Assembly: GCF_008152325.1 (NCBI RefSeq)
Contig: NZ_CP042243.1
Span: 415,026 to 439,025, forward strand
Source of the DNA: Crassaminicella thermophila
GTDB lineage: Bacteria > Bacillota > Clostridia > Peptostreptococcales > Thermotaleaceae
DNA length: 24,000 bases
Direction: 5' to 3'
Shown: positions 2,650 through 19,741 of the stretch, piece by piece
How positions within the stretch are numbered: position 1 is the first letter of the stretch
Layout of the letters: each line of letters opens with the position of its first letter
Program-made: the position numbers and the translations under genes
The notes under the pieces: generated by a model
The model's database searches: none
What the model was told of the DNA's origin: nothing
What the model saw: the letters and a program-made list of their open reading frames with translations, nothing else

Positions 2650-4140
2650 AAAAAATTTTAATTAAATTGGTGAATAAAAATGCATGACAAAAAGACCTGC
2701 GTGAGGCAAGTATAAGTAAAAATATGGGAAATAATATCAATTACTCGTTATTAGGTAGTCTCACCTCATAAGGACAATTATTTTTTAAAATAGCATGAAT
2801 TGTGTAGCAAAGTTTACGAGCGACAGCTCCAATAGCCGTTAGGTGATGTTTTCCTTCTGAACGTTTCTTCTGGTAAAAAGCTTTAAAAACAGGGTCACAG
2901 TTAGAGGTAACTAAAAGCAGCACTAAAGAGAGCCTTTCTAAGATAGGGCGATCCACGTTTACTCATTTTGTTATTTGTACTTTGATATTCACCAGATTGT
3001 GAAACAGAAGCATCAATTCCAGCATAAGCAACAAGCTTTTGAAGGGTTTGAAAAATCTTGAGATATCACCTATTTCGCCAAGTATAGTTGCAGCTGTTAC
3101 GTTGCCAATACCAGGTATTGTAGTAATAGGAGAATTGATTTTTATCAAGTAAAGTGTTTATTTGCTTTTTCTATATCTTTGACCTGACTTTTCAATAAAG
3201 TTAATCTGCTCAATTAATAGTTTTAATTGAAGAGCAAAAGCTATCTAAACAAAAAAGCTTATACCAAAAAGAATTTTTTTAGCTACACGAGAAAGTTGTT
3301 TGATTTTTATTAGTAGCAAATTTTTTTCATAGTGATTTCAGATAAAAACTTTGTCTAACTTTTTCAGATGAAATATTTTTCGAAATCACTTGGAGAGCTG
3401 AAATGAAGCAAAAATTTCCTTTTGATGTTTGTCCAAAAAATATCAGAAAAAGATAGATTGATATTCAGGAAAAAAACTTGGTCTAAGACACAAATGGTTT
3501 TTACGTTTAAGGTCACCTATAGAACTGATGAGATAGTTTCTAAAGCGAGAAAGGTTGCGAAGTGATATGGTATTTTTCATCGGCTAAGGAAGTTTCCAGA
3601 AAAATCACCATAACGAATAAGATCTGCAATTAAAACAGAATCAATGATATCTGTTTTACGCTTTCTGATTTCAATACCTTTACGCCAACCATCAGTTTGG
3701 ATAGGGTTTACAACATGAATGACAAAACCTTTTTCCACAAGAAATGAGTAAATGGATAACCAATAGTGACCAGTAGCTTCCATACCTATTTCAACATCAT
3801 TAACAGATCTAATGAAATTGTTTAACTTAGTAATTAAGCTTTCACCACCATTTGTAGTATTTGAAAAGGAAAAAGCCTTAAAAATAATTTTTCCTTTTTC
3901 ATTTATTAGCGAAGCTACATGATTGTTTTTTCCAATATCAATACCTAAATAAAACATTTCCATCACCACTATAAATTTATTTTAGATAGTTCCTCTAATC
4001 TGATAAACGTTACCGCCTTGTTGCATATTCGAAGTACTAAACTTATTAGTCAACATCCAACTTATTCGTAATCTGTTTATCAGACAGAGGTGTCAGTCTT
4101 TCAAGTACGAGGTCTTACCTCAAGGAGACTACGACATCAC
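2650..4140 (-). mobile_element. Decayed IS110-family insertion sequence; boundaries approximate
   Basis: Contains the broken transposase (2741-3969) plus about 170 nt of structured non-coding DNA 5' of it. No terminal inverted repeats were seen, as expected for IS110-type elements. The ends could not be mapped from a single copy. Confidence 0.6.
2741..3969 (-). pseudogene. IS110-family (DEDD) transposase pseudogene with multiple frameshifts and stops
   Basis: The N-terminal ORF 3577-3969 reads MFYLGIDIGKNNH...IGMEATGHYW...VNPIQT...KTDIIDSVLIADLIRYG (DEDD_Tnp_IS110-like). The C-terminal fragments 2963-3148 (IPGIGNVTAATILGEIGDISRF) and 2741-2956 (YQKKRSEGKHHLTAIGAVARKL) match the Transposase_20-like domain. 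By-eye translation of the minus strand of 3149-3576 still reads LRNLSRFRNYLISSIGDLKRK...VFFPEYQSIF, but it is interrupted by several stops and frame changes. Confidence 0.85.
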
Positions 4141-5397: not shown

Positions 5398-6885
5398 ATG
5401 TCTATTAAACTTAGATTGTTGCTTTCTTATGTGGGTATGATTATTATTCCGGTTATAGTTATATTACTATTAAACTCCATGTTTATTATTTTTGGAGAGA
5501 CTGAACAAGAAGATGTTAAAATAATCCTTAATCCTATGAGAATCGTAGGAAAATATATTGCAAAGCAGACAGAAATAAACAGAAAGTTAAATATAGAAAT
5601 CCTTAATAATAAAGAAAAATTAATAGATCCTTCTTATTTAAAAAAGTATGACCAAGAATTAGAAGCATATTATTCTGGTTTAATCGTAAGGGAGGATGAG
5701 AAAATCGTATATGTTTCAAAAATCTTAGAAGATGAAGGATTATTATCTTCATTGCCAGCATTTAATGAAGTCTTCCATAGAAAAGATTTTTATAGAAATC
5801 ATGGAAAAGGATATATACTGAGGCATCAAAACGATTTTTATTTGAATGATGGTTCTAAGATCTCTATGTTTATTGTTTCAGATACGAATTTAGCAAGAAG
5901 AGATTTCAATAAAATAAGGAATCGAATAACTCTTATAGTTATCAGTGTATTAATTCTAACTACCTTTACATTAACATTTTTTATTTATAAGAGTATTATT
6001 AGATCCATCAAAAATCTTGAATATGCTGCAAATGAAATAAAAAAAGGAAATTTGGATTATGAAATTAAAAAGTATTTAAATGATGAAATAGGAGATCTTA
6101 GTCTTTCTCTTGAAGAAATGAGATTAAAACTGAAAAATTCTTTGGAAGTACAGAAAAAATACGAAGAAAATAGAAAAAACTTAATTTCAAATATATCTCA
6201 TGATCTTAAGACACCTATTATGTCTATAAAAGGATACATAGAAGGAATAAGAGATGGGATTGCTGATACACCAGATAAGATGGAGAAGTATATAAATACC
6301 ATTTATGAAAAAGCAAGACATATGGAAGGGTTGATTGATGAGTTATTTCTTTTTTCAAAGCTTGATTTGCAGAAAGTATCCTTTGATTTTCAGACTATTG
6401 ATATCATAGAATTTTTAAAATACAGTGTGGAAGATTTAAGCTTTGAGTTAGAAAAAATAGAAGGGAAAATAAGTCTAAATGATGAAAAAGAAAGTATTTT
6501 TGTAAAGGCTGACTTACAAAAGTTAAAGAGAGTAATAGTAAATATTGTAGGAAATTCAGTAAAATATAAAGGAGAAAGCCCCCTTACAATCGATATTTTT
6601 GTAAAAAAAGAGCATGAAGAAGTTATAGTGCAGATCAAAGACAATGGAAAAGGAATTTCAAAAGAAGATCTCCCTTATATTTTTGATCGATTCTATAGAG
6701 CAGATCAATCAAGAAATACTTCTGTAGGAGGAAGTGGATTAGGGCTTGCTATATCTAAACAAATTATTGAAAAACACGGTGGTAAAATGTGGGCAGAAAG
6801 TAAAATAAATATTGGAACAAGTATATTCTTTTCGTTAAAGATTTGTAAAGGGGGTAGTATTGATGAAAAAAATATTGATTATTGA
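5398..6885 (+). CDS. Membrane sensor histidine kinase (HAMP-HisKA-HATPase_c)
   Basis: ATG at 5398 lies 5 nt after GGAGG; the ORF-track TTG at 5386 is less likely. Two TM segments bracket an extracytoplasmic loop. H-box SHDLKTPI, N-box NIVGNSVKY and G-boxes DNGKGI / GGSGLGLAI are present. The gene overlaps the downstream regulator gene by 23 nt. Confidence 0.9.
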   Translation: MSIKLRLLLSYVGMIIIPVIVILLLNSMFIIFGETEQEDVKIILNPMRIVGKYIAKQTEINRKLNIEILNNKEKLIDPSYLKKYDQELEAYYSGLIVREDEKIVYVSKILEDEGLLSSLPAFNEVFHRKDFYRNHGKGYILRHQNDFYLNDGSKISMFIVSDTNLARRDFNKIRNRITLIVISVLILTTFTLTFFIYKSIIRSIKNLEYAANEIKKGNLDYEIKKYLNDEIGDLSLSLEEMRLKLKNSLEVQKKYEENRKNLISNISHDLKTPIMSIKGYIEGIRDGIADTPDKMEKYINTIYEKARHMEGLIDELFLFSKLDLQKVSFDFQTIDIIEFLKYSVEDLSFELEKIEGKISLNDEKESIFVKADLQKLKRVIVNIVGNSVKYKGESPLTIDIFVKKEHEEVIVQIKDNGKGISKEDLPYIFDRFYRADQSRNTSVGGSGLGLAISKQIIEKHGGKMWAESKINIGTSIFFSLKICKGGSIDEKNIDY

Positions 6886-7551
6886 GGATGATACTAGCAT
6901 TGCTGAGTTAGAACGGGATTATCTTAATATTAATGGATTTTCTGTAGAAATAGAAAACACAGGACTTAAAGGTATAGAGCGAGCGCTGAAGGAAAAGTTT
7001 GATTTAATTATATTGGATTTAATGCTTCCAGAGATAGATGGGTTTCAAATCTGTAAAGAATTAAGAGAAAATTTAGATATTCCAATTCTCATGGTTTCAG
7101 CGAAAGGAGAAGGAATTGATAAAATAAGGGGATTAGGACTTGGAGCAGATGATTATATTACCAAACCTTTTAGTCCCAATGAATTAGTAGCAAGAGTCAA
7201 ATCACATCTAAATAGATATGAAAGATTGACCAATAGGAGAAAAAACAAGAGGAAATAATCGAAGTCAATGGCCTTACTATAGACCCTTATTCAAGAAGAG
7301 TATATGCAAATAATAAGGAAGTAAATTTAGCTTCCAAAGAATTTGATGTCTTATTGCTTCTAGCAAGGAATCCAAATCGTGTTTTTCGAAAGGAAGAAAT
7401 CTTTGAGAGAGTGTGGGGATTAGATTCTTTAGGAGATGTATCTACAGTTACAGTGCATATTAGAAGAATTCGTGAAAAAATTGAATATGATGCATCAAAC
7501 CCTAAATATATTGAAACCTTATGGGGGGTTGGATATAGATTTAAAATATAG
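6863..7551 (+). pseudogene. OmpR-family response regulator split by a frameshift in an A6 run
   Basis: The receiver domain (KILIIEDD...DLMLPEIDG...SAKG...DDYITKPF) runs in one frame to the stop at 7256-7258. The winged-helix domain (EEIIEVNGLTIDPYSRRVYANNKEVNLASKEFDVLLLLARNPNRVFRKEEIFERVWG...GVGYRF) runs in the -1 frame, open from 7237 to 7551. The switch point is the AAAAAA run at 7240-7245. Confidence 0.8.
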
Positions 7552-7554
7552 GAA

Positions 7555-7585
7555 AGGTCAGAGAATTTTCTCTGACCTAAGGTTT
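7555..7585. terminator. Bidirectional rho-independent terminator between convergent genes
   Basis: Perfect 10-bp stem AGGTCAGAGA (7555-7564) / TCTCTGACCT (7569-7578) with a 4-nt loop, followed by a T-rich stretch. Confidence 0.8.
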
Positions 7586-8907
7586 TAACCAATTCCTCCA
7601 TAAATAATTCCTAGAACCAAGACAATTCCTGCTATAAGTACAAATATGTATTTTGCAAAAAATCCCCACCATTTTCCTAAAGGTCTTTTAGCTCCCTTGT
7701 TAATTTCGGTACGAGCTTTTTCTATCCCATAGATCCAAAAGAAAGTGATAGCTGCTAACAAAGCACTAAAGGGCAATAGATATATGGTAATAAAATCTGC
7801 GAACTTTCCAAATAGGTTCATGTTTATATCTAAAGGAATTCCAAATAAAAAAGCAATACATGCAGCGATTAAAACACTTTTCTTTCTGCTAAATGAAAAC
7901 TTATCCATAAATGCTTCTACAGTTACTTCCATCAAAACTACTTCTGTAGAAATGGCTGCAAAGATGATGCACAAAAAAAATGCAACACCAAATAAATATC
8001 CTCTGCCCATTTCCTTAAAGATATGGGGCATAGTTATAAAAAGAAGTGATGGACCTGCAGATACACTCAACTTAAAAGAAAATGTTGCAGGGATGATGAT
8101 AAATGCAGCTAAAAATGCAGCGATTGTATCAAACAAAGCAGTATGTATTGCACATGTAGGAATATCTTCATCTTTTTTTAGATAACTTCCTAATACAACC
8201 ATTCCTGCACCACCTAAAGATACTGTAAAAAATGCTTGTCCCAGAGCCATAATCCAGGTAATAGGCTTTAATAAATAGGACCAATCAGGTAATAACAAAT
8301 ATTTTACACCCTCTATAGAACCTGTTAGAGATAAAGAACGTATCATTAATATGATGAAAAGAATAAATAATGAAGGCATCATGATTTTGTTTACTTTTTC
8401 AATTCCTTTTTTTACACCAAGAACAACAATCCCTAATGTAATAAGGATAGCCAATCCATTCCAGAAAATACTTTCAGGATGTCCTGCAAAATTTTTGAAA
8501 GTATTCGAAATAGCAATATGATAAAAAGAGCCATTTACAGCTAATGCAAAATATTTTAAAACCCATCCTACCACAACAGAATAAAATATAAATACACCTG
8601 TTTGAGCAATGACTGGAATACTTCCAATGACTGCACCGAAAGGAAGATTTTTTTGTTTAAATACTTTTTCAAAAGCACCGATAGAACCCTTTTGCTGAGA
8701 TCTACCAAATGCAAATTCCCCTATAAGTCCAGTAGTTCCTAATGCAAATACAAATAAGAGATATGGAATCAAAAATGCAGCTCCTCCGAATTGACCTAAT
8801 CTCCAAGGAAACATCCATATATTCCCTAAACCAATTGCAGAACCAATACAAGCTAAAATAAATCCAATTTTTCCTGTCCAAGTTTCTCTTTCTACTGTTT
8901 TGGGCAT
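7585..8907 (-). CDS. Neurotransmitter:sodium symporter (NSS/SNF) family amino-acid transporter
   Basis: The N-terminus carries the NSS signature (GSAIGLGNIWMFPWRLGQFGGAAFLIPYL). The protein is polytopic (about 11-12 TM) and 440 aa long. Confidence 0.85.
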   Translation of the reverse strand: MPKTVERETWTGKIGFILACIGSAIGLGNIWMFPWRLGQFGGAAFLIPYLLFVFALGTTGLIGEFAFGRSQQKGSIGAFEKVFKQKNLPFGAVIGSIPVIAQTGVFIFYSVVVGWVLKYFALAVNGSFYHIAISNTFKNFAGHPESIFWNGLAILITLGIVVLGVKKGIEKVNKIMMPSLFILFIILMIRSLSLTGSIEGVKYLLLPDWSYLLKPITWIMALGQAFFTVSLGGAGMVVLGSYLKKDEDIPTCAIHTALFDTIAAFLAAFIIIPATFSFKLSVSAGPSLLFITMPHIFKEMGRGYLFGVAFFLCIIFAAISTEVVLMEVTVEAFMDKFSFSRKKSVLIAACIAFLFGIPLDINMNLFGKFADFITIYLLPFSALLAAITFFWIYGIEKARTEINKGAKRPLGKWWGFFAKYIFVLIAGIVLVLGIIYGGIG

Positions 8908-8926
8908 TCAATTCACCATCCTTATT

Positions 8927-8958
8927 GAAAAATAAAAAACTCTCCATAGGAGAGTTTT
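8927..8958 (-). terminator. Intrinsic terminator inside the 5' leader of the NSS transporter gene (attenuator)
   Basis: The minus strand reads AAAACTCTCC-TAT-GGAGAGTTTT followed by TTATTTTTC. This is a perfect 10-bp stem plus U-tract, ending about 20 nt before the start codon at 8907. Confidence 0.75.
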
Positions 8959-9005
8959 AGGCATACAAAAACAAAACCTTATAAAGGTTTATAATCATTT
9001 ATTTT

Positions 9006-9074
9006 CTACCTAGCTACTATCCTACTTATAAAGATACTACATAAAAACCTACAAAACTACCAACTACCCTGCTA
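9006..9074 (-). promoter_or_regulatory. UAG-triplet-rich leader segment (candidate RNA-binding-protein site)
   Basis: Ten CTA triplets on the + strand (UAG on the transcript) start at 9006, 9010, 9014, 9017, 9022, 9037, 9049, 9057, 9064 and 9072. The 5'-most four are spaced by 5, 4 and 5 nt. Confidence 0.5.
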
Positions 9075-9096
9075 AGTTTTTAAAAAAGACTTTTTT

Positions 9097-9125
9097 ATTA
9101 TAAGTAAAAAAAATAAAGCTGTCAA
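9097..9125 (-). promoter_or_regulatory. Consensus sigma-A promoter for the NSS transporter leader
   Basis: The minus strand reads TTGACA (9125-9120), a 17-nt spacer, then TATAAT (9102-9097). Both hexamers are perfect. The predicted leader is about 180 nt. Confidence 0.75.
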
Positions 9126-12106: not shown

Positions 12107-12225
12107 AATTTTAAAAAAATACAATAAAATTTATCATACTCGACATATTTCTACAAAAAAATATGAAATTTTCGTATAAAATAAAGATATTAAGGGAAAC
12201 ATGCAATGAGAGGACGAAGAATAAT

Positions 12226-12717
12226 ATGCTGCAAATACCTATACTTGTGTTTTTTATAAGATCAATTCCTGAGGGTATCCTTTTAATTTTTTCAAGCTAT
12301 ATGTTGTTAAATAAAAAAATTAATAAAAAAAGACTTGCTTTATCTGGGCTTTTATTAGCCATAAGTACATATATTGTAAGATTGCTTCCTATTCATTTTG
12401 GTGTGCATACAATGATTATTATCATGCTATATATTTTTTTTACAGTAAAAATAAACAACATGCATATAATGGAATCTATTCCTATATGTATCATATCTAT
12501 GATTATAATTTTTATTTGTGACTGGATTATTGTACTTTTTTATGTAAATATATTACATCTTGATTTTATATATATATTTAAAGAACCCGTAAAAAGTGCT
12601 ATATATAGTATTCCTTCTTTAATAATGACTTTTTTTATCGTTCTTATGATATTTTGTATCAAAAAATATAGAAATAAGAAGGTAGATTCACATGTATCTG
12701 ATCGAAAGAGTATCTAA
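12226..12717 (+). CDS. Small polytopic membrane protein of unknown function, first gene of the agr cassette
   Basis: Preferred start is ATG 12226 (MLQIPILVFF...), with a purine-rich GAGAGG about 12 nt upstream. The ORF is open from 12163. It has about 5 hydrophobic helices with short K/N-rich loops and no soluble domain. Its 3' end overlaps agrB by 26 nt. Confidence 0.6.
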   Translation: MLQIPILVFFIRSIPEGILLIFSSYMLLNKKINKKRLALSGLLLAISTYIVRLLPIHFGVHTMIIIMLYIFFTVKINNMHIMESIPICIISMIIIFICDWIIVLFYVNILHLDFIYIFKEPVKSAIYSIPSLIMTFFIVLMIFCIKKYRNKKVDSHVSDRKSI

Positions 12718-13354
12718 TAATATTGCAGGGAAAATAGCTGCTACTTTAAAGCTAGATAAAGAGCAGGAAGCCGTATTAGCTTATGGGGCTTTTGGATTGC
12801 TTGAAACTATATTAGCAATCATTTTAGTCTTAGTTTTTGGGAAAATATTTGGGGTATTATTAGAAGCAATTATTATTTCTTTTGTATCGGCAATATTTAG
12901 AAAATATTCAGGAGGAGCCCATGCAACATCTCCTAATCGATGTGCAGCAATTGGGGTAATTGTATCAGTTGGATTAGGTATATTTGTGAATAAAATAAGT
13001 ATAAATATTTTTAGTTTACTAATATTTGGACTATTAACCTTTTTTATTGTTTTATATATAACTGTTAAATATGCTCCTGTGGATACACCGAATAAACCAA
13101 TAAAAAAGCTAGAAAGAAGGAAAAAATTAAAAATAAAATCATTGATTATACTCTTTTTATTCCTTATAATTACATTAATTTTAACAAGATACTACATAAA
13201 ATTAGGAGATGTAAGTTTGCTTAGCATCATAGCTTCTATTTTACTAGGACTGCTTTGGCAGGCAATTACATTGACATCTTTAGGACATCTAATAATACAT
13301 AAATTAGATGATTCCTTAAGAAAAATAGCAACTTTAGGGGGGAGGGGGATATGA
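12692..13354 (+). CDS. agrB: AgrB-family accessory gene regulator B (AgrD-processing membrane endopeptidase)
   Basis: The motif RKYSGGAHATSPNRC places His at residue 77 and Cys at residue 84. These are the same positions and spacing as the catalytic pair of S. aureus AgrB. The protein is multi-TM, about 220 aa, and sits immediately upstream of an AgrD-like ORF. Confidence 0.9.
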   Translation: MYLIERVSNNIAGKIAATLKLDKEQEAVLAYGAFGLLETILAIILVLVFGKIFGVLLEAIIISFVSAIFRKYSGGAHATSPNRCAAIGVIVSVGLGIFVNKISINIFSLLIFGLLTFFIVLYITVKYAPVDTPNKPIKKLERRKKLKIKSLIILFLFLIITLILTRYYIKLGDVSLLSIIASILLGLLWQAITLTSLGHLIIHKLDDSLRKIATLGGRGI

Positions 13355-13552: not shown

Positions 13553-15247
13553 ATGCATCAGATAGAAAATAAATTCCAAAAAAAAGTTTATGAAATGTTA
13601 TTTGTTTCAAAGTTATTGTCACTATTATTCTGTGGAATTATTATTTTTATACAATACAATGTACATTTTTTAAAAAATCTACATAAATATATGAGCTTTT
13701 CTATGATTACAGCGATGCTGGGTATAGGTATGTTGACATTAATCTATAAGATATGGATATTTTCTTATAAGAATAACAAGATTACTTCAAAGGTATCTGC
13801 AACAGATATAATTGAAATAATATTGTTTATTGGTATTTTTTCTATTTTGATTATTTTTTCAGGAGTACATACTAGTCATTATAAATTTATATTTTTATTT
13901 ATTATTATTCCAACTACTATGCAATTTGGAATCAATTATGGGATAGGGGTTTCTAGTATATGTTCTATACTAGTTTTATTGATAGATTACATGGCTTTAC
14001 CACGAAATACTATTAATATATTTTTTGAAACAGACTTAATTTTAACAGGGGTTTTTTTATTAACTGCATGGTCTTTAGGTTACTATGTAAATATTGAAAA
14101 AGAATATAGGAAAGAAATCTCTCAGTTAGCCAATATGGATGAGCTAACAGGAGTTTATAATCATAGATTTTTTCAGGAGGCTTTATCAGAGAAAATAGAA
14201 GTGTCTAAAAATAAAAAAACATCTGTAGCACTGTTGTTTATAGATATCGATTATTTTAAATATTATAATGATCTTTATGGACATCAAGCAGGAGATAAGG
14301 TATTAGAAAAAATTGGAGATATATTAAAAAATTTAATTAGAAAAGAAGATATTGTAGCAAGATATGGAGGAGAGGAATTTGCAATAATCTTGCCAAATAC
14401 CAAAGAAGAGCAAGCTTTAAATATTGCTGAGAAAATACGAAGTACAATTGAGAAAATTGAATTTGAAGGAGAGGAAAATTTACCTAATAAGAAGCTTACC
14501 GTATCTGTTGGGGTTTCTGATTTTCCGAACAAAGCAAAATCTAAAGAAGAATTAATCAAGGCTTCAGATGATGCACTTTATAGAGCAAAATTTTTTAATA
14601 AAAACCGGGTAGAAACATATCATTCTGTATTAGAAGAATTAAAAAAAGATATACAACAAGAGCATATTGACTTGATTAGTTCTGTTAAAACATTAATAAG
14701 CGTAATTAATGCAAAGGATCGTTATACCTATGGACATACGGAAAGAGTGGTTATATACTGTAAAATGCTTGCAGATCGATTAGGTTTAAGAGAAGAGGAC
14801 AAAAAGATTTTAAGATATGGAGCATATTTGCATGATATAGGAAAAATTGAAATTGGCAAAGATATTTTAAATAAAAAAATGCCTCTTACAGATGAGGAAT
14901 GGAAACTTTTAAAGAAGCATCCTGAAAATGGTGCTGAAATCATAAGAGCTGTTGACTCTCTTAAAGATGTTATTCCTTTGATCTTTTATCATCATGAACG
15001 CTATGATGGAAATGGATATCCAAAAGGGTTAAAAGGGGAAGAGATTCCTTATTTGGCAAGAATATTAACGGTTGCAGATAGTTTTGATGCTATGACTTCT
15101 AATCGTCCATATCAATCAAGAAAAAGTTTTGAAGATGCAATAGAAGAATTAAGAAGATGCAGCAAAAGCCAATTTGATCCTAAGATTGTAGATGTTTTTA
15201 TAGAAATAATTGAGAAAAACATAGATAAATTTGATCGAATGAGGTAA
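13553..15247 (+). CDS. Integral-membrane (about 6 TM) GGDEF diguanylate cyclase fused to an HD-GYP phosphodiesterase domain
   Basis: About 180 aa of hydrophobic N-terminus come first. The GGDEF domain shows DELTGVYNHRFF, FIDIDYFKYYNDLYGHQAGD, an RxxD I-site (RKED) 5 aa before RYGGEEF. The HD-GYP domain shows GHTERV, LHDIGK and HHERYDGNGYPKGLKGEEIP. Confidence 0.9.
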   Translation: MHQIENKFQKKVYEMLFVSKLLSLLFCGIIIFIQYNVHFLKNLHKYMSFSMITAMLGIGMLTLIYKIWIFSYKNNKITSKVSATDIIEIILFIGIFSILIIFSGVHTSHYKFIFLFIIIPTTMQFGINYGIGVSSICSILVLLIDYMALPRNTINIFFETDLILTGVFLLTAWSLGYYVNIEKEYRKEISQLANMDELTGVYNHRFFQEALSEKIEVSKNKKTSVALLFIDIDYFKYYNDLYGHQAGDKVLEKIGDILKNLIRKEDIVARYGGEEFAIILPNTKEEQALNIAEKIRSTIEKIEFEGEENLPNKKLTVSVGVSDFPNKAKSKEELIKASDDALYRAKFFNKNRVETYHSVLEELKKDIQQEHIDLISSVKTLISVINAKDRYTYGHTERVVIYCKMLADRLGLREEDKKILRYGAYLHDIGKIEIGKDILNKKMPLTDEEWKLLKKHPENGAEIIRAVDSLKDVIPLIFYHHERYDGNGYPKGLKGEEIPYLARILTVADSFDAMTSNRPYQSRKSFEDAIEELRRCSKSQFDPKIVDVFIEIIEKNIDKFDRMR

Positions 15248-16305: not shown

Positions 16306-16656
16306 ATGGCGAAATATTTAGATACTACAAAAAAGGCTGAAATTAATATACGTTTGTCAGAATTTGAAATGCCACCCATGCAGGATGTATTAATTGTAGG
16401 AAAAAGGGCACCTATTGGGGCTGAAGGAGCTAGAAGAATGGTTGACATTTTATCACCTGATCAGTATGATATTATTAAAATTGAACATGATACTATAGAA
16501 GCGATTGTTGTAAGGAGAACATTACTAAAAATGCTTCCTAAAGATAAGCTAGTTAATTTAATTTTAGAAGAAGGGGGGAAAATTGCTAACGAATCTATTA
16601 TTCTAAAAATGCAGATTAATATTACAATTCAAGTTAGCAGATCAATAGATATATGA
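16306..16656 (+). CDS. Hypothetical 116-aa soluble protein, translationally coupled to the CBS-GGDEF gene
   Basis: RBS GGGGGAG precedes the ATG. I recognised no motif. Its stop overlaps the next start (ATATGA, 4-nt overlap at 16653-16656). Confidence 0.55.
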   Translation: MAKYLDTTKKAEINIRLSEFEMPPMQDVLIVGKRAPIGAEGARRMVDILSPDQYDIIKIEHDTIEAIVVRRTLLKMLPKDKLVNLILEEGGKIANESIILKMQINITIQVSRSIDI

Positions 16657-17510
16657 TTAGAAAAATTTCTGAAATCATGATTAAAAATTTTGTAGCAGTT
16701 GACACTTGCGATGGCGTGTTAAAAGCAGAAAGAATGCTTACAGAAAATAATGCAGAAGGAGCTTTGGTATTTGAAGGTACTACTTTAGTAGGTGTTGTAA
16801 CTTATAAGGATTTATTAAGATCACATCCAAATAGAATTGTTGCAGATGCAATGAATACAAAAATATTCTACATATCTTTGGAAGCTTCTTTGTGGAAGGC
16901 AGAAGAGATGTTTAAAAAACATCATACAGAAATACTAATCGTAAAGGAAAATGCTACTCCTGTAGGATTTATAACAAAAGCAATCCTTTATGCAGAACTA
17001 GGAAAATACATAGATCCATTAACAGGATTAAATAGAAGTGATTATATTTATTATAAGGCAGATGAAATAATGAAAAATAAGAGGGAAATAGGAATCATTT
17101 TTATAGATGTAAATAATTTTGGATATATTGATAAGAATTATGGTCATACGATAGGTGATGTTATTTTAAAAGAAATAGGAAGTATTCTGAAAAATAATAT
17201 TCCTAATGATACATATACTTGTAGATTTGGTGGTGATGAGTTTGTTGTAGTTGCTCCTTATGATTTAAATGAGTGTAAGAATCTTGCTCAAAACTTAAGG
17301 AAAACAATTGAATCATATCATTTTATAAATAATGTACCAGTAAGTATAACTACGGGCATAGCTGGATGGAAAGTTGGAAAAAATGTCAACCATAATTTTA
17401 GAAATATTATAAATATCATGAATGCAGCTAGTTTAGCATCTACAAAAGCGAAAAAGGAAGAAGATGGATTATCTGTAGCAGAGAGTTTTGAAATTATTGA
17501 TATTGCATAA
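16653..17510 (+). CDS. CBS-pair + GGDEF domain protein (putative diguanylate cyclase)
   Basis: Two CBS motifs lie in the first ~115 aa (IMIKNFVAVD...LVGVVTYKDLL; AMNTKIFYISL...PVGFITKAIL). They are followed by DPLTGLNR, FIDVNNFGYIDKNYGHTIGD and RFGGDEFVVVA. No RxxD I-site precedes the GGDEF motif. Confidence 0.85.
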   Translation: MIRKISEIMIKNFVAVDTCDGVLKAERMLTENNAEGALVFEGTTLVGVVTYKDLLRSHPNRIVADAMNTKIFYISLEASLWKAEEMFKKHHTEILIVKENATPVGFITKAILYAELGKYIDPLTGLNRSDYIYYKADEIMKNKREIGIIFIDVNNFGYIDKNYGHTIGDVILKEIGSILKNNIPNDTYTCRFGGDEFVVVAPYDLNECKNLAQNLRKTIESYHFINNVPVSITTGIAGWKVGKNVNHNFRNIINIMNAASLASTKAKKEEDGLSVAESFEIIDIA

Positions 17511-18532: not shown

Positions 18533-19741
18533 ATGCAATTTAACTTAAATAATTTCTTGTTTTCATTATCTTATGCTTTAGACTTTGTAGAGATGGATAT
18601 TTTAGGCGTAGCATCAAACCATTCAAAAAGAGTTGCTTATATTGCATATAAATTAGGTGGAGTATTAGGGCTAAATCAAGAAGAACTTTTTGATTTAGTT
18701 TCTTTATCTATATTGCATGACAATGGAGCGAGTCAAAAAGTTTTGCATGATAAATTACAAAATAGAGGGAAAGATAAGAAGAAAGCTTTAGAAAGTATAA
18801 AGGAACATTGTATCATAGGTGAAAAAAATATTTATAAATTTCCATTTTTTACAGATGTTAAAGATGTCATTAAATATCATCATGAAACGTATGCAGGAAT
18901 GGGCTTTTTTGGATTAGATGGAAAGGAAATTCCTTTAATGTCTCAGATTATTTTTTTAGGAGATACTATTGAAAATAAATTTAATGTAAAGGGTGCGTCT
19001 ATTCAAGAAAGGAATGTTATCAATACGTTCATAAGGGAAAATAATAAAATTTTGTTTTCACCAAGTATTAGTGAAGCTTTTATGGAGATTAGCAAGCATT
19101 CAAGTTTTTGGTTGGATTTAAAAGATGAATTTATCAATAATGCTTTAGATGAAATGGTACCGAAATATTATAAAGAGCTTACATGGGAAGAAGTTCGAAA
19201 AATAACGAGTATTTTTTCAAATATTATTGATGCAAAATCTCAATTTACACAAAAACATTCTAAAGAGCTGGCTGAAAAAATAGCATTAATGGCAGATTAC
19301 TATAAAAAAAATAATGAAGAAAAAATGAAACTAATGATTGCAGCAGATTTACATGATGTAGGAAAATTAGCAATCAGTAATGCAATTATAGATAAACCTG
19401 GGAGACTGACAAAGGAAGAGATGAATATAATTCAAGAGCATGCTTACTATACAAGAGTGAGTTTACAGCAAATAGATGAATTTGAAGATATTGCAAAATG
19501 GGCTTCAAATCATCATGAAAAATTAGATGGTTCAGGATATCCATATGGATTAAAGGGAAAAGAACTTGATTTTAATTCACGGCTTATGACATGCTTAGAC
19601 ATATATCAAGCATTGACGGAGAAAAGGCCTTATCGTGAAGGATTGACACATAGTGAGAGTATGAAAGTGCTAAGAAATATGGCTAAAGATGGATTGATTG
19701 ATGGCAATATAGTAGAAGATATTGATAAAGTGTTTCATTAA
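18533..19741 (+). CDS. Tandem HD-GYP domain protein (degenerate N-terminal copy, canonical C-terminal copy)
   Basis: Strong RBS AGGAGG. Domain 1 shows HSKRV, LHDNGA and HHETYAGMGFFG (GYP replaced by GFF). Domain 2 shows HSKELA, LHDVGK and HHEKLDGSGYPYGLKGKEL. Confidence 0.85.
   Translation: MQFNLNNFLFSLSYALDFVEMDILGVASNHSKRVAYIAYKLGGVLGLNQEELFDLVSLSILHDNGASQKVLHDKLQNRGKDKKKALESIKEHCIIGEKNIYKFPFFTDVKDVIKYHHETYAGMGFFGLDGKEIPLMSQIIFLGDTIENKFNVKGASIQERNVINTFIRENNKILFSPSISEAFMEISKHSSFWLDLKDEFINNALDEMVPKYYKELTWEEVRKITSIFSNIIDAKSQFTQKHSKELAEKIALMADYYKKNNEEKMKLMIAADLHDVGKLAISNAIIDKPGRLTKEEMNIIQEHAYYTRVSLQQIDEFEDIAKWASNHHEKLDGSGYPYGLKGKELDFNSRLMTCLDIYQALTEKRPYREGLTHSESMKVLRNMAKDGLIDGNIVEDIDKVFH

What the first reader, a model, noticed from the sequence alone, without database searches (positions are those of the whole stretch)
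8908..9125. NSS transporter leader: perfect promoter, ten UAG triplets, then an intrinsic terminator - a HutP/TRAP-style attenuator?
On the minus strand, a perfect TTGACA-17-TATAAT promoter (9125-9097) drives a ~180-nt leader. That leader ends in a textbook terminator (10-bp stem plus U-tract, 8958-8927) only ~20 nt before the start codon, so expression must need antitermination. The leader lacks T-box or common riboswitch cores. Instead it carries ten UAG triplets within 69 nt (9074-9006), mostly as GUAG, where roughly one or two would be expected by chance at this composition. The first four are spaced by 5, 4 and 5 nt. After larger gaps (9 and 12 nt) comes a dense cluster UAGGAUAGUAGCUAGGUAG. 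Two known amino-acid-responsive RNA-binding regulators recognise spaced UAG/GAG triplets: HutP (UAG-N4-UAG-N4-UAG, histidine) and TRAP (G/UAG repeats, tryptophan). NSS transporters carry amino acids. The spacing does not fit either protein cleanly, so this may be a divergent or undescribed protein-RNA attenuation system.
Basis: partly seen in the sequence, partly recalled or inferred. Interest (0 to 1): 0.7.

Follow-up and report, generated by a model that had tools for sequence, protein, structure and literature searches.

The report
UAG-rich attenuator before amino-acid transporter
Upstream of a sodium-dependent amino-acid transporter gene in Crassaminicella thermophila lies a real, conserved on/off transcription switch whose C-poor, UAG-rich leader looks like a landing pad for an RNA-binding protein, but it fits neither of the two proteins known to read such triplets.

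Summary
On the minus strand there is a perfect TTGACA-17-TATAAT promoter, ten UAG triplets in 69 nt (about 1 expected), and a 10-bp terminator about 20 nt before the NSS start codon. No Rfam family matches.

The same layout occurs upstream of the orthologous gene in at least four lineages (nine distinct leaders). New here: the 3' UAG cluster is the 5' strand of an intrinsic antiterminator that pairs with the terminator's 5' arm and loop. The default state is therefore probably read-through, and anything that occupies the UAG stretch should cause termination. This is the logic of TRAP, not of HutP.

The 5' cluster has no conserved partner. The stretch holds 1-6% C. UAG positions are more conserved than their spacers.

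The register fits neither TRAP (2-3 nt spacers) nor HutP (3+3 triplets, 4-nt spacers, 12-17 nt linker), and it is only partly conserved.

The sister clade of transporters sits directly after tryptophanase-like genes. More distant orthologues use Tyr T-boxes or Tyr/Phe leader peptides. The signal is therefore probably tryptophan or another aromatic amino acid.

Whether the genome encodes TRAP or HutP could not be tested. Best reading: a protein-dependent attenuator with an unidentified binder.

The parts
9097..9125 (-). Sigma-70-type promoter: TTGACA (9125-9120), 17-nt spacer, TATAAT (9102-9097). The inferred transcription start is near 9090.
   Evidence: (12/12 match). An equivalent TTGACA-17-TATAAT/TACAAT/TATACT precedes every orthologous leader.
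9037..9074 (-). 5' UAG cluster. Five UAG (mostly GUAG) start at 9074, 9066, 9059, 9051 and 9039, with spacers of 5, 4, 5 and 9 nt. It is predicted to be single-stranded and is the candidate factor-binding platform.
   Evidence: positions. (no conserved pairing in the first 94 alignment columns). (a UAG-N5-UAG pair is kept in 8 of 9 leaders). (UAG positions are more conserved than spacers).
8998..9024 (-). 3' UAG cluster, which is the 5' strand of the antiterminator. UAGGA (9024-9020), AGU (9018-9016), UAGGUA (9012-9007) and GAAAAUAAA (9006-8998) form this strand. Five UAG start at 9024, 9019, 9016, 9012 and 9008.
   Evidence: fold without the terminator 3' arm. (helices 1 and 2 are 94-97% paired in six leaders against 41-54% for slid controls). 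(the same pairing is the MFE in all group-A leaders).
8979..8994 (-). Small apical hairpin inside the antiterminator (AAACCU-UUAU-AAGGUU).
   Evidence: The stem sequence differs but the hairpin is kept in the orthologues: CCC/GGG in L001, CCCU/AGGG in L002, ACCUUU/AAAGGU in L007.
8947..8975 (-). 3' strand of the antiterminator. UUUGUUUUU (8975-8967), UGCCUA (8963-8958), ACU (8955-8953) and UCCUA (8951-8947) form this strand. The last two segments are the 5' arm and loop of the terminator, so the two structures are mutually exclusive.
8927..8958 (-). Intrinsic terminator: a 10-bp stem (8958-8949 with 8945-8936), loop UAU, and a U-rich tail (8935-8927).
   Evidence: (96% paired across six leaders, with two C-G to U-A compensatory pairs). 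(-11.3 kcal/mol).
8913..8923 (-). Shine-Dalgarno region AAGGAUGGUGA of the NSS gene.
   Evidence: Read directly. It lies 5 nt before the ATG at 8907.
7585..8907 (-). Regulated gene: a 440-aa sodium-dependent NSS/SNF transporter. It probably carries an aromatic amino acid, most likely tryptophan.
   Evidence: PF00209. 100% identical to the C. thermophila 'sodium-dependent transporter'. Closest solved structure is MhsT 4us3, E=5e-77. The sister clade is linked to a tryptophanase-like gene.

Best explanation
This is a factor-dependent transcription attenuator that controls an NSS amino-acid transporter, probably a tryptophan or other aromatic-amino-acid transporter.

How it works:
- Transcription starts near 9090 from a consensus promoter.
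- The first ~85 nt are C-poor, unstructured and dense in (G)UAG.
- If nothing binds, the 3' UAG cluster (9024-8998) pairs with 8975-8947. This forms an antiterminator that consumes the 5' arm and loop of the terminator, and the transporter gene is transcribed.
- When an oligomeric RNA-binding protein is loaded with its amino-acid ligand, it binds the NAG triplets. Binding starts on the single-stranded 5' cluster as it leaves the polymerase and continues into the 3' cluster.
- The antiterminator then cannot form, the terminator (8958-8936) folds, and transcription stops about 20 nt before the start codon.

What is shown: the promoter, the terminator, the alternative pairing and its conservation, the conservation of UAG positions, and the absence of a conserved fold for the 5' cluster.

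The binder is unidentified. It could be a divergent TRAP or HutP relative, or a new family.
For: - Architecture: promoter and terminator. The antiterminator is the MFE once the terminator's 3' arm is withheld, in the window and in all group-A leaders. In group B the analogous GUAGGA x UCCUAC pairing appears.
- Pairing conservation: antiterminator helices 1 and 2 are 94-97% paired against 41-54% for slid controls. The terminator is 96% paired with two compensatory pairs.
- Breadth: the element is conserved upstream of the orthologous gene in C. indica, two Marinisporobacter MAGs, two unnamed or mislabelled contigs (L007, L012), Anaeromicrobium (L004, L005) and L008. A profile HMM of the leaders hits nothing else in 1.46 Mb of fetched sequence.
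- Platform-like properties: RNAalifold leaves the first 94 columns unpaired. C content is 1-6% in all nine leaders. UAG is enriched against local mononucleotide composition (P<=0.0014 in group A). UAG positions show 0/75 substitutions against 14/174 elsewhere in three close pairs (p=0.007).
- Not a known RNA class: no Rfam family matches.
- Signal: the UAG-leader transporters are monophyletic, and their sister clade sits directly downstream of a tryptophanase-like gene in ten loci. More distant orthologues are under Tyr T-boxes or Tyr-/Phe-rich leader peptides. This subfamily is therefore habitually regulated by aromatic-amino-acid supply.
- Precedent: TRAP blocks an antiterminator by binding NAG repeats and also controls a tryptophan transporter (PMC3913778, PMC4347634).
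Against: - No binder was identified. No TRAP- or HutP-like gene lies within the loci, and the genome could not be searched.
- The triplet register is not strictly conserved. Marinisporobacter has 9-nt periods, and group B keeps only 5-7 UAG with weaker enrichment (P=0.02-0.07).
- Against dinucleotide-preserving shuffles the excess is modest (10 vs 6.9, P=0.02).
- Covariation for the antiterminator is weak. Most pairs are invariant or change on one side only, with one compensatory pair, because the leaders are closely related.
- Three of the five 3'-cluster UAGs are already accounted for by base pairing.
Confidence: 0.5

Rival explanations
1. No dedicated UAG reader exists. The UAGs would be a by-product of the antiterminator strand having to pair with two CCUA motifs, plus a C-poor, UA/AG-rich local composition. 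The leader would then be a simple terminator/antiterminator pair. Its balance would be set by general factors (NusA/NusG, transcription speed, NTP levels, RNA decay), or it would act as constitutive partial attenuation.
For: - Dinucleotide-preserving shuffles already give 6.9 UAG against 10 observed.
- UAGGA and UAGGUA of the 3' cluster are base-paired in the antiterminator.
- The register is not conserved, and the UAG count falls to 5-7 in group B.
Against: - The 5' cluster is not part of any conserved helix, yet it keeps its UAGs: 0/75 substitutions against 14/174.
- C depletion to 1-6% over 70-105 nt in nine leaders is itself unexplained.
- Orthologues in other clades all use amino-acid-specific sensors, so an unregulated attenuator would be the odd one out.
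Confidence: 0.2
2. It is a bona fide TRAP (MtrB) binding site (a sub-case of the best explanation). Tryptophan-loaded TRAP would wrap the ten UAGs and block the antiterminator, as in the Bacillus trp leader.
For: - There are ten U/GAG triplets.
- The triplets run into the 5' strand of an antiterminator followed by a terminator.
- The gene's closest relatives are tryptophanase-linked, so it is a likely tryptophan transporter.
- TRAP controls a tryptophan transporter in B. subtilis (PMC4347634).
- TRAP homologues exist in Clostridia such as Anaerotignum and Syntrophomonadaceae.
Against: - The TRAP consensus is [KAG-N2-3]9-11, with only intermittent longer spacers (PMC5378976, PMC3913778). Here one of nine spacers is 2-3 nt, four are 0-1 nt and four are 4-12 nt.
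- No chain of three KAG at 5-6-nt period exists in any of the nine leaders.
- GAG, which TRAP likes as well as UAG, is almost absent.
- No Crassaminicella, Marinisporobacter or Anaeromicrobium TRAP appeared among the listed hits. This is inconclusive because only 120 of 4,559-5,956 hits are shown.
Confidence: 0.12
3. It is an RNA-only sensor: an undescribed riboswitch, or a tRNA-sensing leader unrelated to the T-box. Ligand binding to the UAG-rich region would sequester the antiterminator strand.
For: - The element is conserved and has an expression platform typical of riboswitches.
- No known family matches, so it would be a new class.
- Group B has a conserved 5' hairpin flanked by GGUAG/GUAG.
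Against: - No conserved helices are found in the 5' ~90 nt of group A.
- With 1-6% C, the stretch can hardly form a stable aptamer.
- The whole-leader z-score of -2.3 falls to -0.8 when the terminator's 3' arm is withheld.
- The 5' parts of groups A and B share triplets, not structure.
Confidence: 0.12
4. It is HutP-type antitermination. A hexameric HutP homologue would bind two sets of three UAGs and thereby switch the gene on in the presence of its amino acid.
For: - In the window the UAGs fall into two clusters that contain chains at 7-8-nt period: 9066/9059/9051 and 9024/9016/9008.
- This resembles HutP's two XAG-rich sites read 5' to 3' (PMC2425495).
- UAG rather than GAG dominates.
Against: - HutP sites have 4-nt spacers and a 12-17-nt linker, and they flank or enter the terminator stem so that binding melts it.
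- Here spacers are mostly 5 nt and the linker is 24-30 nt.
- The chains are absent from Marinisporobacter and group B.
- The triplets lie in the antiterminator, not the terminator. Binding should therefore favour termination.
- No hutP-like ORF is next to any leader.
Confidence: 0.05

Closest known systems
[quoted passage not shown]
   Same: - Around ten NAG triplets lie in a C-poor leader.
- The downstream triplets lie in the 5' strand of an antiterminator that competes with an intrinsic terminator.
- The predicted outcome of binding is termination.
- The target is plausibly a tryptophan transporter.
   Different: - Spacers are 4-5 nt (5' cluster) or 0-2 nt (3' cluster) instead of 2-3 nt.
- The triplets are almost exclusively UAG rather than a GAG/UAG mix.
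- They form two clusters split by 24-30 nt rather than one continuous array.
- An mtrB gene has not been shown in these genomes.
HutP-hut terminator RNA of Bacillus subtilis
   Same: - UAG triplets are the recognition unit.
- There are two clusters, a single-stranded 5' one and a structured 3' one, with roughly 7-8-nt periodicity in some leaders.
- The ligand class is an amino acid.
   Different: - HutP sites are (XAG-N4)x3 twice with a 12-17-nt linker. They sit on both sides of the terminator stem, so binding antiterminates.
- Here the triplets sit in an antiterminator, the linker is longer, and the register is not conserved.
- No hutP gene precedes the element.
Leader-peptide (ribosome-mediated) attenuators found here upstream of more distant orthologues of the same transporter (Tyr-rich and Phe-rich peptides)
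   Same: - The gene family is the same.
- The chain is the same: an antiterminator segment that competes for the terminator's 5' arm.
- The signal class (aromatic amino acid) is the same.
   Different: - Those leaders have a Shine-Dalgarno sequence, a 19-24-codon ORF ending in YYxSYYR*/FFFSFFR*, and an anti-antiterminator formed by the regulatory codons.
- The UAG leader has stop codons in all three frames within 16 nt of the transcription start and has no conserved ORF.
- There is no detectable sequence homology (best nhmmer E=0.27).
T-box leaders (RF00230) upstream of orthologues in Clostridium lundense, C. mobile, C. liquoris and C. acetireducens
   Same: Both are terminator/antiterminator leaders in front of the same transporter family, responding to aromatic-amino-acid supply. 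The specifier is UAC (Tyr) in L030 and L033.
   Different: The window and the nine UAG leaders have no Stem I, no specifier loop and no T-box sequence. Rfam scores are far below threshold.

Membership tests
TRAP binding site (tbs) | 9-11 NAG (mostly G/UAG) triplets | tested here: met
   Ten UAG in the window; 9-11 in group A; 5-7 in group B.
TRAP binding site (tbs) | Triplets separated by 2-3 nt, with longer spacers only intermittently (PMC5378976, PMC3913778) | tested here: not met
   Spacers are 5, 4, 5, 9, 12, 2, 0, 1 and 1 nt. There is no chain of three KAG at 5-6-nt period in any of nine leaders.
TRAP binding site (tbs) | The site overlaps the 5' strand of an antiterminator that competes with a terminator (trp-leader type) | tested here: met
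TRAP binding site (tbs) | The genome encodes MtrB (PF02081) | not testable with these tools
   tblastn against 1.0 Mb of fetched loci was negative. Database searches list only the best 120 of 4,559 and 5,956 hits, none from these genera.
TRAP binding site (tbs) | The target belongs to tryptophan metabolism or transport | tested here: inconclusive
   The sister clade of the transporter is tryptophanase-linked in ten loci. The substrate of this protein has not been measured.
HutP binding site | Two XAG-rich sites, each with three XAG separated by 4 nt (PMC2425495) | tested here: not met
   The window has N5-N4-N5 and N5-N5. Chains at 7-8-nt period occur in 4 of 9 leaders and in none of the Marinisporobacter or group-B leaders.
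HutP binding site | Linker of 12-17 nt between the sites | tested here: not met
   24 nt in the window; roughly 19-34 nt in the orthologues (gaps of 22-37 nt between triplet starts).
HutP binding site | The sites flank or enter the terminator stem, so that binding destabilises it | tested here: not met
   The triplets lie upstream of the terminator, in the antiterminator's 5' strand. The terminator has no conserved UAG.
HutP binding site | A hutP gene (PF09021) is present, classically just upstream of the site | tested here: not met
   No HutP-like ORF in the window or in any locus. The upstream neighbours are a spore-germination permease, a Na/Pi transporter or a nitroreductase. Presence elsewhere in the genome is not testable.
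T-box leader | Match to RF00230 (Stem I, specifier loop, T-box sequence) | tested here: not met
   No hit at gathering score or at E<=10. Orthologues with real T-boxes score 93-95 bits.
Known riboswitch classes (Rfam 15) | Match to any curated aptamer model, or a conserved aptamer fold | tested here: not met
   RNAalifold finds no conserved pairs in the 5' 94 columns.
Leader-peptide attenuator | A translated short ORF with a Shine-Dalgarno sequence and a run of regulatory codons overlapping the anti-antiterminator | tested here: not met
   UAG occurs in all three frames from 16 nt after the start site. The only ORF (8998-8957, 13 codons) is absent from C. indica and Marinisporobacter. The orthologous Tyr/Phe leader peptides look quite different.
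Intrinsic (Rho-independent) terminator | A G+C-containing stem-loop followed by a U tract | tested here: met
   compensatory changes.

The most novel reading that the evidence does not exclude
The UAG-rich leader is the operator of an undescribed RNA-binding attenuation protein. This could be a new family, or a TRAP/HutP relative with a different geometry. It would read UAG triplets at a ~7-8-nt pitch, sense tryptophan (or another aromatic amino acid), and switch off a TnaT-like transporter by preventing antiterminator formation. That would make it a third member of the small set of amino-acid-activated, triplet-reading attenuation proteins.
Probability: 0.25. Interest if true: 0.8.

Novelty: new variant of a known kind. 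Interest (0 to 1): 0.6.

Why it matters
Only two proteins, TRAP and HutP, are known to control transcription by reading spaced NAG triplets. Both come from Bacillus, and both have been important models for protein-RNA recognition and allostery.

A conserved leader in Clostridia that has TRAP's logic but a register fitting neither protein gives a concrete, short RNA bait (about 85 nt) for finding either a divergent TRAP/HutP binding mode or a new regulator.

It also completes a picture of regulatory turnover. Orthologous aromatic-amino-acid NSS transporters are controlled in different lineages by T-boxes, by Tyr or Phe leader peptides, by co-transcription with tryptophanase, or by this UAG leader.

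Tried and rejected
- **Known RNA families.** Rfam at gathering score on the window and on eight orthologous loci, and at E<=10 on the leader, gave nothing relevant.
- **Leader peptide or pyrrolysine-type reading of UAG.** Five of the ten UAGs share a frame, but there is no start codon or Shine-Dalgarno sequence upstream and the pattern is not conserved. The 13-codon ORF at 8998-8957 recurs only in L007/L012 and is out of frame or start-less in C. indica and Marinisporobacter. Rejected.
- **Descent from the Tyr/Phe leader-peptide attenuators of distant orthologues.** These share 'GAUGG' and 'AUAGAUAGG'-like strings. nhmmer in both directions found nothing significant (best E=0.27). Not supported.
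- **RNA-only anti-antiterminator.** The UAUCUU x AGGAUA hairpin seen in the window's MFE is not conserved. Rejected.
- **Regulator encoded nearby.** Pfam on the window ORFs and tblastn of TRAP and HutP against all fetched DNA found none.
- **TRAP in the genome.** Two database searches, one representative search and one cluster look-up could not reach these genera. Both window-extension look-ups failed.
- **Other instances or a regulon.** UAG-dense windows elsewhere in 1-1.5 Mb of fetched DNA are coding or unrelated. The leader HMM hits only the NSS leaders.
- **CsrA (AGGAUG), Hfq and a two-tier G-quadruplex.** These were considered from the sequence only and were not pursued. None explains the spaced UAGs.

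Full report
**Source and observation.** The NSS protein encoded at 7585-8907 (minus strand) is 100% identical to the 'sodium-dependent transporter' of Crassaminicella thermophila, on a 3.05-Mb contig. It carries PF00209. All coordinates below are on the minus strand.
- The promoter is TTGACA (9125-9120), a 17-nt spacer, and TATAAT (9102-9097). It is the only 12/12 site in the surrounding 4 kb.
- A 10-bp stem-loop at 8958-8936 with a U-rich tail is the only terminator-like site. It ends about 20 nt before the Shine-Dalgarno/ATG (8907).
- Ten UAG triplets start at 9074, 9066, 9059, 9051, 9039, 9024, 9019, 9016, 9012 and 9008.
- The strand average is 1.06 UAG per 69 nt. Outside this locus no 69-nt window on either strand of the 24 kb holds more than 7.
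- Against shuffles of the local 91 nt, the count is 10 versus 2.7 with mononucleotide shuffles (P=0.0002). It is 10 versus 6.9 with dinucleotide-preserving shuffles (P=0.02).
- Part of the signal is therefore an unusual local composition: 5% C, rich in UA and AG.
- Rfam finds nothing.

**Conservation.** Leaders of the closest orthologues were fetched:
- C. indica (L001).
- Two Marinisporobacter MAGs (L002/L011 and L023).
- Two contigs of an 80%-identical lineage (L007, and L012, which is titled 'Lutibacter sp. B2').
- Anaeromicrobium (L004, and L005/L013).
- L008.

All nine distinct leaders have a near-consensus promoter, a 70-105-nt stretch with 1-6% C, 5-11 UAGs in two clusters, a small hairpin and a terminator. 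Group A (the first six) shares GUAG-N4/5-GUAGGUU and GAU(N)GUAG(N)UAGGUAG. Group B (Anaeromicrobium and L008) shares AUAG-N5-GUAG and GAUGGCAGAAUAGUAGGA. A profile HMM of the nine leaders hits only these NSS leaders in 1.46 Mb of fetched DNA.

**Antiterminator.** The window leader was folded without the terminator's 3' arm. The 3' UAG cluster then pairs with the region that includes the terminator's 5' arm and loop:
- UAGGA (9024-9020) pairs with UCCUA (8951-8947).
- AGU pairs with ACU.
- UAGGUA (9012-9007) pairs with UGCCUA (8963-8958).
- GAAAAUAAA pairs with UUUGUUUUU.
- A small hairpin sits at the tip.

The same pairing is the MFE in every group-A leader. The analogous GUAGGA x UCCUAC/UCCUGC pairing appears in group B. 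On the six-sequence alignment, helices 1 and 2 are 94-97% paired, against 41-54% when the partner is slid. Covariation is weak because most pairs are invariant. The terminator is 96% paired with two C-G to U-A compensatory pairs.

Two consequences follow. First, the leader does not need an external antiterminator; the default is probably read-through. Second, whatever occupies the UAG stretch favours termination. This is TRAP's logic (PMC3913778), not HutP's (PMC2425495).

**The 5' cluster.** RNAalifold leaves the first 94 alignment columns unpaired. A hairpin seen in the window's MFE is not conserved. Even so:
- A UAG-N5-UAG pair survives in 8 of 9 leaders.
- In three closely related pairs, UAG positions show 0/75 substitutions against 14/174 elsewhere (Fisher p=0.007).

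A C-poor, unstructured stretch with conserved triplets and variable spacers is what a protein-binding platform looks like. It is not what an aptamer looks like.

**Fit to known readers.**
- TRAP sites are [KAG-N2-3]9-11, with only intermittent longer spacers (PMC5378976, PMC3913778, PMC1474065). Here only one spacer of nine is 2-3 nt. No leader contains even three KAG at a 5-6-nt period.
- HutP reads two sets of three XAG with 4-nt spacers and a 12-17-nt linker. The sets are placed around the terminator stem.
- The window has chains at 7-8-nt period in both clusters, and so do C. indica (3' cluster only) and L007/L012. Marinisporobacter (9-nt periods) and group B do not. The linker is 24 nt in the window and about 19-34 nt elsewhere, and the triplets sit in the antiterminator.
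- Neither family's defining register is met.

**Which signal?**
- The closest solved relative is MhsT, a hydrophobic-amino-acid transporter (4us3).
- In an NJ tree of about 100 orthologues, the UAG-leader transporters are monophyletic.
- Their sister clade consists of genes lying immediately downstream of a tryptophanase-like gene. tblastn finds this in ten loci. NCBIfam scores are higher for TnaA than for tyrosine phenol-lyase. This is the tnaA-tnaT arrangement known from Symbiobacterium (cited in PMC2494555).
- More distant clades carry T-boxes with a UAC (Tyr) specifier.
- Others carry textbook leader-peptide attenuators with Tyr-rich (..NYYYSYYR*..EYYYYYYR*) or Phe-rich (..NNSFFFSFFR*) peptides.
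- The subfamily is therefore regularly wired to aromatic-amino-acid supply. By phylogeny, tryptophan is the most likely effector here. This is an inference.

**The binder.**
- No TRAP- or HutP-like ORF lies in the window or in any fetched locus.
- TRAP homologues do exist in Clostridia, within a dnaE-mtrB-pfkA-pyk cluster in Anaerotignum and Syntrophomonas.
- The database tools list only the best 120 of thousands of hits, and none is from these genera.
- The C. thermophila chromosome outside the window could not be reached.
- Presence or absence of TRAP or HutP is therefore untested.

**Verdict.** The finding is a real, conserved and apparently undescribed attenuator.
- Best reading (0.5): a protein-dependent attenuator with TRAP-like logic and an unidentified NAG-triplet reader, responding to tryptophan or another aromatic amino acid.
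- Within that reading, canonical TRAP (~0.12) and HutP-type antitermination (~0.05) are disfavoured by the register and, for HutP, by the topology.
- Rival (0.2): the UAGs are largely a by-product of antiterminator pairing and composition, with no dedicated reader.
- Rival (0.12): an RNA-only sensor.
- Classification: a new variant of a known kind, namely triplet-repeat, protein-mediated attenuation. There is roughly a one-in-four chance that it marks a new RNA-binding regulator.

Noticed in passing
L133 about -279..-210 from the NSS start; also L016, L108-L110, L115, L139-L141, L144-L149 (Tyr) and L037, L040, L129, L130, L137, L143, L146 (Phe): More distant orthologues of the transporter carry classic leader-peptide attenuators. 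Each has a short ORF with a Shine-Dalgarno sequence ending in a Tyr-rich (..NYYYSYYR*..EYYYYYYR*) or Phe-rich (..NNSFFFSFFR*) tail. A UCUAUGAUGG segment follows that is complementary both to those codons and to the terminator's 5' arm. One or two CCACAUAG..CUAUGUGG terminators come next. The one leader of this kind that was scanned with Rfam (L010) gave no hit.
   Followed up: partly
window 6860-7545 (+): The OmpR-type response regulator downstream of the histidine kinase is frameshifted. The receiver domain stops at 7258, and the Trans_reg_C domain continues in another frame to about 7545. The Marinisporobacter orthologue (L002 4366-5055) is an intact 229-aa protein. This is a pseudogene, a sequencing error or a slippage site in an A-rich run.
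   Followed up: partly
window 8957-8998 (-): A 13-codon ORF (MIINLYKVLFLYA*) lies inside the antiterminator, with an AGGUAG Shine-Dalgarno-like sequence upstream. L007/L012 have MLVIYLLKGLFLYT* at the same place. C. indica and Marinisporobacter lack a start codon and are in a different frame, so it is probably not functional.
   Followed up: yes
L171 8001-8243 and L172 8001-8255: In Clostridia that have TRAP (Anaerotignum propionicum, Syntrophomonas), mtrB sits in a conserved dnaE-mtrB-pfkA-pyk arrangement. This is unlike the folE(mtrA)-mtrB operon of Bacillus.
   Followed up: no
L002 2826-2975; L004 2882-2990: One Marinisporobacter MAG has a ~150-nt insertion between the attenuator's terminator and the Shine-Dalgarno sequence, which the other MAG (L023) lacks. 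Group-B leaders have a second ~100-nt segment with another hairpin plus U run before the Shine-Dalgarno sequence. This may be a second regulatory module.
   Followed up: no
window 3577-3969 (-): An N-terminal fragment (130 aa) of an IS110-family transposase (PF01548) lies between the RND pump gene and the RND adaptor gene.
   Followed up: no
window 12163-13354 (+): An AgrB homologue (PF04647, 12692-13354) is preceded by a 184-aa multi-pass membrane ORF without a Pfam hit. This may be a quorum-sensing peptide-processing locus. No AgrD-like ORF was looked for.
   Followed up: no
window 16306-16656 (+): A 116-aa ORF without any Pfam match overlaps by 4 nt the start of a CBS-GGDEF gene (16653-17510). 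Two HD-GYP/GGDEF genes are nearby (13553-15247 and 18533-19741).
   Followed up: no
L012 (JADPRS010000008.1): The contig is titled 'Lutibacter sp. B2' (a Bacteroidota genus). It is 32% G+C and carries a Clostridia-type NSS gene 80% identical to the window's, plus the UAG leader. The assembly is probably mislabelled or contaminated.
   Followed up: no
L004 1880-1961 (-): A Clostridiales-2 RNA (RF02937, 78 bits) lies about 1 kb upstream of the Anaeromicrobium NSS leader.
   Followed up: no
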